Source: Escherichia coli (GTDB taxonomy: Bacteria > Pseudomonadota > Gammaproteobacteria > Enterobacterales > Enterobacteriaceae). Taken from it: a stretch of DNA of 64,000 nt. Made by a program: the position numbers. Position 1 is the first letter of the stretch; every line of letters begins with the position of its first letter. Below, one piece after another: positions 33,501-36,500 of the stretch. The DNA is taken from the NCBI RefSeq assembly GCF_016026235.1, contig NZ_CP065613.1, one strand, 5' to 3'.

Positions 33501-36500
33501 TTGCCGATCGTGGAGTGCTGGAGGTGGAGACGCCTTGTATGAGCCAGGCGACGGTAACCGATATTCATTTGGTCCCGTTTGAGACACGTTTCGTTGGCCC
33601 CGGGCATTCGCAGGGGATGAATCTCTGGTTAATGACCAGCCCGGAATACCATATGAAACGCCTGCTGGTTGCCGGTTGCGGGCCGGTATTCCAGCTGTGC
33701 CGCAGTTTCCGTAATGAAGAGATGGGGCGTTATCACAACCCTGAGTTCACTATGCTGGAGTGGTATCGACCGCACTATGATATGTACCGGTTGATGAACG
33801 AGGTGGACGATCTCTTACAACAGGTGCTGGACTGCCCGGCAGCAGAAAGCCTTTCTTATCAACAAGCTTTCTTGCGTTATCTGGAAATTGACCCGCTCTC
33901 TGCCGACAAAACGCAACTGCGGGAAGTGGCAGCGAAACTGGATTTGAGCAATGTTGCTGATACCGAAGAAGACCGCGACACGTTGCTACAATTGCTGTTT
34001 ACCTTTGGCGTAGAGCCAAATATTGGCAAAGAAAAACCGACCTTTGTGTACCACTTTCCAGCCAGCCAGGCATCACTGGCGCAAATCAGTACCGAAGATC
34101 ATCGGGTCGCTGAACGCTTTGAGGTTTATTATAAAGGTATTGAGCTGGCGAATGGTTTCCATGAATTGACGGATGCCCGTGAGCAGCAACAACGCTTTGA
34201 ACAAGATAACCGTAAGCGCGCGGCGCGCGGTTTGCCGCAGCACCCCATTGACCAGAATCTGATTGAAGCCTTGAAAGTCGGTATGCCTGACTGTTCCGGC
34301 GTGGCATTAGGCGTTGATCGTCTGGTGATGTTGGCGCTGGGCGCGGAGACACTGGCTGAAGTCATCGCCTTTAGCGTTGACCGGGCATAATTCTGAAAAA
34401 TTACTGAATTAACAGCGAAGGATGGCGTGATAAGCGCCATTTTGTAGCATATGTTTTCATTTTTCTGTTAAAGGCCACAATTTAAGACTGGATATTTGAT
34501 ATCATCCAGGTATCAATTCTGTATTGGTTTTGACGCTGCCCGCTCAATGTTGGGCAGTGCAGTTCAGTGGGCGCGTTTTATACACGCGCTGAAATGAAGG
34601 ATGGTTTCATGCCTCACACGATAAAAAAGATGAGTCTGATAGGACTCATATTGATGATCTTTACTTCCGTATTTGGATTTGCCAATAGCCCATCGGCTTA
34701 TTACTTAATGGGTTATAGTGCGATTCCCTTTTATATATTTTCTGCATTGTTATTCTTTATTCCATTCGCCTTAATGATGGCTGAAATGGGAGCTGCTTAT
34801 CGCAAAGAAGAAGGTGGTATCTATTCCTGGATGAATAATAGTGTCGGACCACGTTTTGCCTTCATTGGTACGTTTATGTGGTTTTCCTCTTATATCATCT
34901 GGATGGTGAGTACCTCCGCGAAAGTTTGGGTACCGTTCTCAACATTCCTCTATGGTAGCGACATGACCCAGCACTGGCGTATTGCCGGACTGGAGCCTAC
35001 GCAGGTGGTTGGTCTGCTGGCAGTGGCATGGATGATTCTGGTCACCGTCGTTGCTTCTAAGGGGATTAATAAAATTGCCCGCATTACTGCGGTGGGCGGT
35101 ATTGCAGTAATGTGTCTGAATTTAGTATTGCTGTTAGTAAGCATTACTATTTTGTTATTAAATGGTGGGCATTTCGCGCAGGATATTAATTTCCTTGCAT
35201 CACCGAACCCGGGTTATCAGTCCGGTCTGGCAATGCTATCGTTTGTGGTATTTGCTATTTTTGCCTATGGCGGAATTGAAGCGGTTGGTGGTCTGGTCGA
35301 TAAAACGGAAAATCCAGAAAAGAACTTTGCCAAAGGTATTGTTTTTGCCGCTATTGTTATTTCAATCGGTTATTCGCTGGCAATATTTTTATGGGGCGTC
35401 AGCACAAACTGGCAGCAGGTATTAAGTAATGGTTCCGTTAACCTTGGCAATATTACCTATGTGCTGATGAAGAGCCTCGGGGTGACGCTGGGTAACGCAC
35501 TGCATTTGTCACCTGAAGCGTCATTGTCGCTGGGCGTATGGTTTGCGCGTATTACCGGACTTTCGATGTTCCTCGCTTATACCGGTGCGTTCTTTACGCT
35601 TTGCTATTCACCGCTGAAAGCCATCATCCAGGGGACGCCGAAAGCGTTGTGGCCGGAACCGATGACGCGCCTGAATGCGATGGGGATGCCGTCTATCGCC
35701 ATGTGGATGCAGTGCGGGTTGGTTACTGTCTTCATCCTGCTGGTTTCGTTTGGTGGCGGTACCGCATCGGCGTTCTTTAACAAGCTGACGCTGATGGCGA
35801 ACGTGTCTATGACGCTTCCTTACCTGTTCCTCGCGCTGGCTTTCCCATTCTTTAAAGCACGTCAGGATCTCGACAGACCATTTGTGATTTTCAAAACGCG
35901 TATGTCGGCAATGATTGCGACGGTGGTTGTCGTTCTGGTGGTGACATTTGCGAACGTCTTCACCATTATTCAGCCTGTGGTTGAAGCCGGAGACTGGGAC
36001 AGCACATTGTGGATGATTGGCGGCCCTGTCTTCTTCTCGCTGTTAGCGATGGCGATTTACCAGAACTATTGCAGTCGCATGGCGAATAAACCTGAGTTAG
36101 CTCTCGACTGATCATATGAAATCCTGCAACTCATCGTCTCTCCGGCGATGAGTTGTCAGGAAGTAATGCGTATGGATGATACTCTCCAGGGCCGGTGATA
36201 ACTGAAGATGATGTTAAGCTGCTAAATGAGCCACGTTGACATCATTTGGCAGCTTCATGCATTACAAACTTCCCGCCTGACGACCTTTGCCCGCAGACGT
36301 CAGCGTTCTCCCCGTTTGTTTACCGTTGAGGCTTTCCAGACGCATCTGGAAGGGCGGGAATGGCATATCGATACCGTGGGCATGGAAGCCAGCCAGAATC
36401 AGCTGGTGGATCTCATGGCGTAGCGGCATACGGTGACCCATCTCAGCGGCGTAAATACGCAGCTCGAAAATCTGAATCCCCTGTTGCAGATCCACCAGGA

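What the first reader, a model, noticed from the sequence alone, without database searches (positions are those of the whole stretch)
36112..36261. Only 150 bp separate convergent yjeM and mscM; the small genes recalled at this position in K-12 (yjeN, yjeO) appear absent
From memory, the K-12 reference has two small ORFs of unknown function (yjeN, yjeO) between yjeM and mscM. Here the two stop codons are 150 bp apart with no room for them, and no matching ORF appears elsewhere in the window. If my recollection is right, this is a strain-level presence/absence difference marking a small accessory islet in K-12 rather than in this strain.
Basis: inference. Interest (0 to 1): 0.25.

Follow-up and report, generated by a model that had tools for sequence, protein, structure and literature searches.

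The report
Old deletion scar of yjeN-yjeO
This strain lacks two small genes (yjeN, yjeO) that E. coli K-12 carries between yjeM and mscM, because an old deletion of about 580 bp left a 150-bp scar that 44% of complete E. coli genomes share, so it is an ordinary gene-content polymorphism.

Summary
yjeM ends at 36111, mscM (minus strand) ends at 36262, and 150 bp lie between them. K-12 MG1655 has yjeN and yjeO there. Neither gene occurs anywhere else in the window.

This is not a K-12 islet. The 150 bp are a deletion scar made of three parts:
- the hairpin that follows yjeM;
- the yjeN ribosome-binding site, ATG and about 13 decayed codons (now an 8-codon ORF);
- the hairpin that follows yjeO in E. 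albertii and E. whittamii.

Intact yjeN-yjeO sits at this site in E. albertii. A frameshifted yjeN is there in Salmonella arizonae. YjeO (DUF2645) homologues flank mscM in 18 of 80 Enterobacteriaceae species representatives.

Among 5,426 complete E. coli genomes:
- 2,394 carry this scar;
- about 2,150 carry yjeN+yjeO;
- about 870 carry yjeO only.

A divergent Escherichia lineage (strain E69) has the same scar, so it is old.

Side lead: outside Escherichia and Salmonella, DUF2645 always follows a ~236-aa protein with a lytic-transglycosylase fold, and hcp is sometimes adjacent. That suggests an eroding type VI effector-immunity slot, with yjeO as an orphan immunity homologue. This is untested.

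Overall the finding is ordinary and of low interest.

The parts
34609..36111 (+). yjeM (glutamate/GABA-family transporter), 500 codons plus a TGA stop
   Evidence: ORF. NCBIfam NF011775 at 863 bits. The start codon was checked against the RefSeq annotation of the identical strain XH990.
36076..36111 (+). Left edge of the polymorphic segment. The last 12 codons of yjeM exist as two deeply different alleles: ...RMANKPELALD* here, in APEC O1 and in the SCPM-O-B-8794 genome, with 80%-identical versions in E. albertii and E69, versus ...RVAKNPQWAVE* in K-12, the yjeO-only strains and E. whittamii.
   Evidence: Alignment A1. The megablast alignment to K-12 stops at window 36074. Translations are and per-segment identities.
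36112..36261 (.). 150-bp yjeM-mscM spacer, interpreted as the deletion scar of the yjeN-yjeO cassette
   Evidence: It is present at 80% coverage or more in 2,394 of 5,426 complete E. coli genomes.
36122..36161 (+). Hairpin H1 just after the yjeM stop (17 bp in two stem segments separated by a 1-nt bulge, 5-nt loop, -27.2 kcal/mol, z = -7.7), with no U-tract. Spacer nt 1-46, which hold most of H1, are identical to the yjeM-yjeN spacer of APEC O1.
   Evidence: Fold. Identity to APEC O1, SCPM and E. albertii. No terminator-like site by the consensus scan.
36158..36211 (+). Decayed 5' remnant of yjeN. The RBS-like AGGAAG and the ATG at 36172 are followed by 8 codons (MDDTLQGR) and TGA at 36196-36198. 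About 76% of positions match K-12 yjeN codons 1-14, with 2 indels.
   Evidence: Local alignments. In the shuffle test 0 of 2000 shuffles reach the observed score against K-12, APEC O1 or E. albertii. Translation.
36216..36255 (.). Hairpin H2 just after the mscM stop (14-bp stem AAGCTGCTAAATGA/TCATTTGGCAGCTT, 12-nt loop). The outer arms and the following CATGCA match the yjeO-mscM hairpin of E. albertii and E. whittamii (AAGCTGCC...GGCAGCTTCATGCA). They do not match the K-12/APEC O1 hairpin (GCCGGATGGGTTCATCCGGC).
   Evidence: 0 of 2000 shuffles reach the score against E. whittamii and 11 of 2000 against E. albertii, while there is no signal against K-12 or APEC O1.
36262..39585 (-). mscM (miniconductance mechanosensitive channel), 1107 codons plus a TAA stop. 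The right edge of the polymorphic segment is its stop codon.
   Evidence: ORF. NCBIfam NF008180 at 2198 bits. Alignment A1 is invariant from the stop codon inward.

Best explanation
The 150-bp spacer is the scar of an old internal deletion of about 580 bp. The deletion removed yjeN from about codon 14 through the yjeO stop codon.

The parent was a resident yjeM-yjeN-yjeO-mscM arrangement of the type still intact in E. albertii, with the same left-end allele and the same right-end hairpin. The junction reads GAAGATGA|TGTTAAGCTGC. It lies where yjeN ...GAAGATGA|AATC meets yjeO ...GGTGA|TTGAAGCTGC, so 3-5 nt of microhomology around TGA are the likely breakpoint. This breakpoint is inferred.

What survives is the hairpin after yjeM, a dead 8-codon stub of yjeN, and a remodelled hairpin after mscM. 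The two hairpins probably still act as 3'-end or stability elements for the convergent yjeM and mscM transcripts. This too is inferred and was not tested.

The allele is old. It now segregates in E. coli alongside intact and half-decayed (yjeO-only) alleles, probably moved between lineages by homologous recombination through the conserved flanking genes.
For: Shown:
1. Spacer nt 1-46 are identical to the APEC O1 yjeM-yjeN spacer. Nt 47-100 align colinearly with the yjeN RBS, ATG and first ~40 nt, and 0 of 2000 shuffles reach the score.
2. The right ~45 nt match the yjeO-mscM hairpin of E. albertii and E. whittamii.
3. Outgroups: E. albertii has yjeM-yjeN-yjeO-mscM. E. whittamii has yjeO plus a yjeN 3' stub. 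S. enterica subsp. arizonae has a frameshifted yjeN at the same site. Intact YjeN proteins are also on record from Salmonella enterica; their genomic position was not examined. DUF2645/YjeO homologues lie directly downstream of mscM in 18 of 80 Enterobacteriaceae species representatives, 3 of them Escherichia.
4. K-12 yjeN and yjeO have native G+C of 0.50 and 0.48, against 0.51 for the window. Intact alleles show dN/dS of 0.02-0.28. No mobility genes or flanking repeats are present.
5. Strain E69, a divergent Escherichia lineage (yjeM 92.6% and mscM 95.7% nt identity to the window), carries the same scar at 90% identity over 132 nt.
6. Allele counts are near mutually exclusive: 2,394 genomes with the scar plus 3,021-3,025 with yjeO, out of 5,425 genomes that have the locus.
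7. Two yjeO-only haplotypes (E. coli PRO_A and E. whittamii) have different yjeN breakpoints, so deletions recur at this locus.
Against: - The remnants are short: about 55 nt at ~75% identity with indels, and a hairpin match of 14-32 nt.
- Polarity rests on these remnants plus parsimony over outgroups, not on a recombination-aware ancestral reconstruction.
- 62 of 80 Enterobacteriaceae species have no cassette at mscM, so repeated gain at this slot cannot be excluded for the wider family.
- The intact parent combination (this left allele plus this right hairpin) was found in only 3 of 5,426 E. coli genomes. There it is 99.7% identical to E. albertii, so it may be an introgression.
- Neither hairpin is followed by a U-tract, and the consensus scan calls no terminator. 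Their function is therefore unproven.
Confidence: 0.85

Rival explanations
1. One reading: the 150-bp spacer is the ancestral empty site, and yjeN-yjeO is a small accessory islet inserted in the K-12 lineage.
For: Many Enterobacteriaceae have yjeM directly next to mscM with a short spacer of roughly 50-100 bp: 30 of 80 species have yjeM and no cassette. The scar allele is the largest of the three counted E. coli allele classes, at 44%.
Against: The empty site contains yjeN- and yjeO-flank-derived sequence in the right order. The cassette or its pieces occupy the same site in E. albertii, E. whittamii and S. arizonae. The genes have native G+C and are under purifying selection. No target-site duplication, integrase or IS is present at the K-12 cassette.
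Confidence: 0.05
2. Allelic replacement rather than local deletion. The window's lineage never deleted anything itself. It received the whole segment, from the yjeM 3' end through the spacer, by homologous recombination from another Escherichia lineage in which the deletion had happened long before.
For: The segment is mosaic. The yjeM 3' end has two deep allele classes that assort independently of cassette content and of the mscM 3' variants. dS between E. coli yjeN alleles is ~0.3. That looks higher than usual within-species divergence, though no core-genome dS was measured here. The scar is shared with the divergent lineage E69 and with strains as different as O157:H7 and LF82.
Against: This is a refinement, not a contradiction. 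A deletion still had to create the scar once. No donor was identified and no recombination breakpoints were mapped.
Confidence: 0.45
3. The spacer is maintained as a functional non-coding element in its own right, for example a small RNA or a bidirectional terminator module, rather than being a neutral scar.
For: The 150 nt fold far better than shuffles on both strands (z about -4.9), with two long hairpins. H1 is perfectly conserved relative to APEC O1, while the adjacent yjeN stub has decayed. H2 has been remodelled into a longer 14-bp stem rather than lost.
Against: No Rfam family matches at E<=1. No U-tract terminators are called, and the only promoter-like site within the spacer is a weak 9-of-12 consensus match. 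The hairpins are inherited from the cassette-bearing alleles, so they need no new function.
Confidence: 0.2

Closest known systems
E. coli K-12 yjeN-yjeO (b4157-b4158), a two-gene operon between yjeM and mscM. yjeO was reported as induced 2.6-fold in the sigma-E regulon screen (PMC2731931).
   Same: Same chromosomal slot and same flanking genes. The window keeps the sequence upstream of yjeN, its ATG and about 13 codons.
   Different: Both coding sequences are gone. The window's left-end allele and right-end hairpin are of the E. albertii type, not the K-12 type.
The yjeO-only haplotype of E. coli (for example ST131 JJ2434 and PRO_A-1407) and of E. whittamii
   Same: It is another decay state of the same cassette, at the same site and bounded by the same flanks.
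   Different: Only yjeN is deleted and yjeO is kept intact. The breakpoints differ from each other and from the window's. About 870 genomes carry it, against 2,394 with the full scar.
Hcp-linked type VI secretion effector-immunity pairs with peptidoglycan-cleaving effectors (Tge/Tgi, Tae4/Tai4) and orphan immunity genes. This comparison rests on general knowledge of those systems.
   Same: In other Enterobacterales the YjeO family (DUF2645) always directly follows a ~236-aa, signal-peptide-less protein with a lytic-transglycosylase/g-type-lysozyme fold. hcp is adjacent in 3 of 8 lineages. The pair is AT-rich where measured (Kosakonia and the rare E. coli haplotype). It is once prophage-borne and once sits next to a CdiI immunity gene.
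   Different: Nothing here has been tested experimentally. E. coli K-12 has YjeN in place of the enzyme, and the two proteins show no detectable similarity. DUF2645 is a polytopic membrane protein, unlike the known periplasmic Tgi proteins. The window has neither gene.
Intrinsic (Rho-independent) terminators between convergent genes
   Same: There is a strong GC-containing hairpin immediately after each of the two converging stop codons.
   Different: Neither hairpin has a U-tract, and none is called by the consensus scan.

Membership tests
Deletion scar / gene remnant of the yjeN-yjeO cassette | Sequence derived from both ends of the missing segment, in the original order and orientation, at the orthologous site | tested here: met
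   The left part matches the yjeM-yjeN spacer plus the yjeN 5' end. The right part matches the albertii/whittamii yjeO-mscM hairpin.
Deletion scar / gene remnant of the yjeN-yjeO cassette | Outgroups carry the intact segment at the same site | tested here: met
   E. albertii has the cassette intact. E. whittamii has yjeO. S. arizonae has a frameshifted yjeN.
Deletion scar / gene remnant of the yjeN-yjeO cassette | Loss of coding capacity in the remnant | tested here: met
   The yjeN stub reads MDDTLQGR and then stops. There is no YjeN or YjeO tblastn hit anywhere in the window.
   The yjeN start remnant and the yjeO-flank hairpin are present in the window.
   yjeN G+C is 0.50 and yjeO 0.48, against 0.51 for the window. 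Nothing but yjeN and yjeO is annotated between yjeM and mscM in K-12, and the alignment shows no flanking duplication.
   It is present in E. albertii, E. whittamii and Salmonella arizonae.
Intrinsic terminator | A GC-rich stem-loop followed by a run of U | tested here: not met
   The stems are present. There is no U-run, and the scan finds 0 terminator-like sites.
Known RNA family (Rfam) | A covariance-model match | tested here: not met
   No match at E<=1 in window 35800-36600 on either strand.
T6SS effector-immunity module (for the lost cassette's wider family, not for the window itself) | Tight, conserved pairing of the effector gene with a downstream small immunity gene | tested here: met
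   DUF2645 directly follows the ~236-aa gene in 8 of 8 lineages inspected and lies within 10 bp downstream of it in most of the 12 species loci next to mscM that have both.
T6SS effector-immunity module (for the lost cassette's wider family, not for the window itself) | Genetic linkage to T6SS delivery components (hcp, vgrG or PAAR) | tested here: inconclusive
   hcp is adjacent in Dickeya (same strand, 10 bp upstream), Xenorhabdus and Pectobacterium (convergent). It is not adjacent in Cronobacter, Winslowiella, Paramixta, Yersinia (a prophage) or E. coli.
T6SS effector-immunity module (for the lost cassette's wider family, not for the window itself) | The effector has a toxic enzymatic fold with catalytic residues | tested here: inconclusive
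   The AF2 model has pLDDT 87. All top Foldseek hits are lytic transglycosylases or g-type lysozymes, but they are weak (best E = 0.025, TM 0.45-0.56). E78 is near-invariant, and GSxAIQ and RYNRG motifs resembling SLT motifs are present (the motif comparison is from memory). There is no Pfam SLT hit.
T6SS effector-immunity module (for the lost cassette's wider family, not for the window itself) | T6SS-dependent secretion and toxicity, neutralised by the cognate immunity protein | not testable with these tools
   This needs competition and periplasmic-expression experiments.

The most novel reading that the evidence does not exclude
The slot at the 3' end of mscM is an ancient, eroding type VI effector-immunity locus of the Enterobacteriaceae.

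- The original pair is an Hcp-delivered, SLT-like peptidoglycan-cleaving effector (~236 aa) plus a DUF2645 membrane immunity protein.
- In the Escherichia/Salmonella lineage the effector gene was replaced by yjeN, and yjeO persisted as an orphan immunity gene under purifying selection.
- E. coli now segregates for yjeN+yjeO, yjeO only, or nothing.

On this reading the window's strain, like 44% of E. coli including O157:H7, has lost protection against this effector, which is still encoded by species of Citrobacter, Enterobacter, Cronobacter, Kosakonia and a few E. coli. If true, this would give K-12's uncharacterised YjeO (DUF2645) its first function.
Probability: 0.3. Interest if true: 0.5.

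Novelty: already known. Interest (0 to 1): 0.15.

Why it matters
As found, it matters little. It is a common, old presence/absence polymorphism of two uncharacterised small genes, visible in thousands of public annotations. One pan-genome study (PMC11390585) already reports yjeO as a gene associated with better growth in milk among mastitis-associated E. coli strains.

It is useful in two modest ways:
- It corrects the polarity. K-12 is the conservative state here, and the 150-bp spacer is a scar.
- It shows that the slot is a multi-allelic, recombining locus with at least six haplotypes, which makes it a convenient marker.

The only route to real interest is the side lead that YjeO/DUF2645 is the immunity half of an Hcp-linked lysozyme-like effector pair. 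Presence or absence of yjeO would then predict susceptibility of E. coli strains to type VI attack by other gut Enterobacteriaceae.

Tried and rejected
- **Rfam:** a search of the spacer and flanks at E<=1 found nothing.
- **Terminator and promoter scan:** no terminator was called, and the only promoter-like site inside the spacer is a weak 9-of-12 match.
- **YjeN function:**
  - No Pfam, NCBIfam, PHROG or PADLOC hit was found.
  - Homologues occur only in Escherichia and Salmonella.
  - The AF2 model is mediocre (pLDDT 69.5) and has no significant PDB fold match; the best hits are ROQ winged-helix domains at E~3.
  - I therefore do not assign it a function.
- **YjeN as a fragment of the 236-aa enzyme:** BLASTP shows no similarity (E = 2.4), so I rejected this idea.
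- **The ~236-aa protein:**
  - Pfam and NCBIfam give no real hit, and PADLOC gives none.
  - A profile search against PDB sequences found nothing meaningful.
  - It does match phrog_11932, a phage protein family of unknown function (E = 7e-28).
  - Only the fold search points to lytic transglycosylases, and weakly.
- **Literature:**
  - No held paper mentions DUF2645 or PF10840.
  - Sixteen papers mention yjeN or yjeO, mostly in gene lists.
  - A search on T6SS lytic-transglycosylase effectors in Enterobacteriaceae did not surface this family.
- **MAFFT alignment:** the four-way alignment misplaced the window's right half against yjeO coding sequence. Local and segment-wise alignments were needed to see the true homologies.
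- **REP/BIME element:** I considered this for the spacer. Neither hairpin resembled the REP consensus as I recall it, although REP-like palindromes do appear to fill the Salmonella spacers. The comparison was by eye only.
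Full report
**1.

On the + strand an ORF ends at 36111, and on the - strand an ORF runs 36262..39585. They match the NCBIfam equivalogs for YjeM (863 bits, cut-off 400) and MscM (2198 bits, cut-off 809). The two stop codons are separated by exactly 150 bp, 36112..36261.

In K-12 MG1655 the same interval is 705 bp. It carries yjeN and yjeO, each 315 bp, overlapping by 4 bp and on the yjeM strand. PMC2731931 lists them as b4157-8. A tblastn with YjeN and YjeO of K-12 and APEC O1 against the whole window gave no hit.

**2. How common the allele is**

A 1.2-kb query across the junction matched 5,425 of 5,426 complete E. coli genomes and showed several arrangements. Three targeted queries gave the counts:

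| Allele | Genomes (of 5,426) |
|---|---|
| Window-type spacer, >=80% coverage | 2,394 (44%) |
| Full-length yjeN | 2,153 |
| yjeO | 3,021-3,025 |
| yjeO only (by subtraction) | about 870 |

- 2,053 of the window-type genomes are >=99% identical to the window; they include O157:H7 strains, and LF82 (98.5%) also carries the scar.
- 1,862 yjeN copies are K-12-like. That figure is inflated by laboratory derivatives. A further 293 copies are only 80-95% identical.
- Scar and yjeO counts sum to about 5,419 of the 5,425 genomes that have the locus. The states therefore look mutually exclusive and nearly exhaustive.
- This is a major allele class, not a peculiarity of one strain.

**3. Anatomy of the 150 bp**

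- **Left end.** Spacer nt 1-46 are identical to the yjeM-yjeN spacer of APEC O1. They hold most of a hairpin at 36122-36161 (17 bp in two stem segments; -27.2 kcal/mol, z = -7.7).
- **yjeN stub.** Nt 47-100 (36158-36211) align colinearly with the yjeN ribosome-binding site, ATG and first ~40 nt. About 76% of positions match K-12, with two indels. None of 2,000 shuffles reached the score against K-12, APEC O1 or E. albertii. The stub now reads MDDTLQGR-stop.
- **Right end.** The remaining ~50 nt do not resemble the K-12/APEC O1 yjeO-mscM hairpin (GCCGGATGGGTTCATCCGGC). They do match the one in E. albertii and E. whittamii (AAGCTGCC...GGCAGCTTCATGCA). The stem has been remodelled to 14 bp (36216-36255).
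- **Junction.** GAAGATGA|TGTTAAGCTGC can be read as yjeN ...GAAGATGA joined to the yjeO stop ...GGTGA|TTGAAGCTGC. That suggests a microhomology-associated deletion of about 580 bp. This step is inferred.
- **Edges of the variable segment.** The left edge lies inside yjeM, whose last 12 codons exist as two deep alleles. The right edge is the mscM stop codon.
- **Parent type.** The window combines the APEC O1/albertii-type left allele with the albertii/whittamii-type right hairpin. That combination is seen intact in E. albertii. It appears in only 3 E. coli genomes, where it is 99.7% identical to E. albertii.

**4. Polarity**

A scan of one genome per species, using the MscM C-terminus, returned 80 Enterobacteriaceae loci. 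The arrangements at the mscM 3' end were:
- E. albertii has yjeM-yjeN-yjeO-mscM.
- E. whittamii has yjeO plus an 18-codon yjeN stub.
- S. enterica subsp. arizonae has a frameshifted yjeN and no yjeO.
- Intact YjeN proteins are also on record from Salmonella enterica; their genomic position was not examined.
- A divergent Escherichia genome labelled E. coli E69 has the same scar, 90% identical over 132 nt. Its yjeM is 92.6% and its mscM 95.7% identical to the window.

Other evidence points the same way:
- K-12 yjeN and yjeO have native G+C of 0.50 and 0.48.
- Intact alleles evolve under purifying selection, with dN/dS of 0.02-0.28.
- dS is about 0.3 between E. coli yjeN alleles and 0.45-0.85 between E. 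coli and E. albertii alleles of the two genes. About 25% divergence of an unconstrained stub fits an old event.
- The two yjeO-only haplotypes (E. coli PRO_A and E. whittamii) have different breakpoints, so deletions recur here.

I conclude with about 0.85 confidence that the window carries a deletion scar and K-12 keeps the older state. The 'K-12 islet' reading fails three of its own defining tests: an empty site free of islet sequence, atypical composition or mobility signs, and absence from sister taxa. Whether the window's own lineage made the deletion or received the allele by recombination is open. The mosaic assortment of left, middle and right variants favours exchange.

**5. What the spacer does now**

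The two hairpins sit immediately after the two converging stop codons, and the 150 nt fold much better than shuffles on both strands (z about -4.9). Neither hairpin has a U-tract, the consensus scan calls no terminator, and Rfam has no match. The most likely role is 3'-end formation or protection of the yjeM and mscM mRNAs, inherited from the cassette-bearing alleles. This is inference only.

**6. What was lost (side lead)**

*YjeO and YjeN.*
- YjeO is Pfam DUF2645. Its hydropathy profile has at least two strongly hydrophobic stretches.
- YjeN has no family hit, occurs only in Escherichia and Salmonella, and gave no usable fold match.
- Published information is thin. yjeO was 2.6-fold induced in a sigma-E regulon screen (PMC2731931). 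yjeN is discussed among unstudied genes (PMC9976479). yjeO was one of five genes associated with better growth in milk across mastitis-associated strains (PMC11390585).

*The partner gene in other genera.* In 12 of the 80 species loci, the DUF2645 gene next to mscM is preceded by a ~236-aa gene in place of yjeN, broken or partial in two of them.
- The family has 132 homologues across Enterobacterales, nearly all annotated 'hypothetical'.
- It has no Pfam hit.
- Its AF2 model is confident, with pLDDT 87 and pTM 0.85.
- Its best PDB fold matches are all lytic transglycosylases or g-type lysozymes. They are weak: MltE at E = 0.025, TM 0.45-0.56.
- E78 is nearly invariant, and GSxAIQ and RYNRG motifs are present. 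They resemble the SLT motifs as I remember them.

*Genomic contexts.* In 8 of 8 further lineages inspected, DUF2645 follows this gene directly.
- Dickeya chrysanthemi has hcp 10 bp upstream on the same strand.
- Xenorhabdus and Pectobacterium have a convergent hcp next door.
- The Yersinia copy rides in a P2-like prophage.
- The Paramixta copy is followed by a CdiI_2 gene.
- Cronobacter has the pair in the epmA-mscM slot.
- The Winslowiella copy stands alone between unrelated genes.
- The pair is AT-rich in Kosakonia (0.41, against 0.59 for mscM) and in the rare E. coli haplotype (0.40 and 0.34).

*A rare E. coli haplotype.* It carries, in order: yjeM; a broken yjeO; a ~70-bp stretch that by eye looks like a duplicate of the mscM 3' end; an IS630 remnant; the 237-aa gene; DUF2645; and mscM.

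*Reading.* The pattern fits a type VI effector-immunity pair with yjeO as an orphan immunity homologue. No experiment supports this, and no held paper mentions DUF2645. I give it about 0.3.

**7. Verdict**

- The feature is an ordinary, old, widespread deletion allele that is already visible in public annotations.
- Interest is low (0.15). The only upside is the untested immunity-gene reading of yjeO.

Noticed in passing
window 8602-11443 (cadC, - strand), insert at about 9511-10803: cadC is interrupted after about codon 214 by a ~1.3-kb IS4-like element. The element has 28-nt imperfect inverted ends at 9502-9529 and 10785-10812, carries a DDE_Tnp_1 transposase, and is annotated elsewhere as the ISEc60 family. 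None of 5,426 complete E. coli genomes has this cadC::IS junction. ISEc60 is multi-copy in strains that carry ~290-kb plasmids, such as CFSAN029787, which I recall as enteroinvasive. The window may therefore come from a Shigella- or EIEC-like genome with an inactivated cad system.
   Followed up: partly
window 26215-27470: An IS3 copy (orfA 102 aa, orfB 288 aa, - strand) is inserted next to ecnB, on its sugE side, relative to K-12. Only one complete E. coli genome (FDAARGOS_943) shares most of this junction.
   Followed up: partly
window 36076-36111; L001 1977-2012: The last 12 codons of yjeM exist as two deeply divergent alleles of equal length (...RMANKPELALD versus ...RVAKNPQWAVE). They assort independently of cassette content, which is a sign of old recombination breakpoints inside the gene.
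   Followed up: partly
L089 3380-6028 (E. coli CP056662); L085 (E. coli SX48); L086-L088: A rare E. coli haplotype at the same slot carries a yjeO-like pseudogene and then a ~70-bp stretch that by eye looks like a diverged duplicate of the mscM 3' end. An IS630 remnant follows, then an AT-rich 237-aa SLT-like gene plus a second DUF2645 gene. It looks like a foreign segment recombined in through mscM.
   Followed up: partly
L093 5512-7012 (Dickeya chrysanthemi Ech1591); L094, L096, L095, L101: Dickeya has hcp, a 234-aa SLT-like gene and DUF2645 as one co-directional cluster. Xenorhabdus and Pectobacterium have a convergent hcp beside the pair. The Yersinia enterocolitica pair lies inside a P2-like prophage. 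The Paramixta pair is followed by a CdiI_2 gene. This suggests an undescribed type VI effector-immunity family.
   Followed up: partly
L018 5054-5573 (S. enterica subsp. arizonae); L011 5054-5114 (subsp. diarizonae): The Salmonella spacers between mscM and yjeM appear to be filled with REP-like palindromes. The arizonae subspecies keeps a frameshifted yjeN and no yjeO, while diarizonae has only 61 bp.
   Followed up: partly
H151-H153 (E. coli ML35, SCPM-O-B-9504, SCPM-O-B-7615): Three genomes labelled E. coli carry a yjeO-mscM junction 99.7% identical to that of E. albertii NBRC 107761. All other E. coli yjeO copies are 80-90% identical to it. This is either introgression or mislabelled genomes.
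   Followed up: no
window 42575-42875: Three tandem ~76-nt repeats correspond to the three tRNA-Gly genes downstream of orn in K-12. This is ordinary.
   Followed up: no
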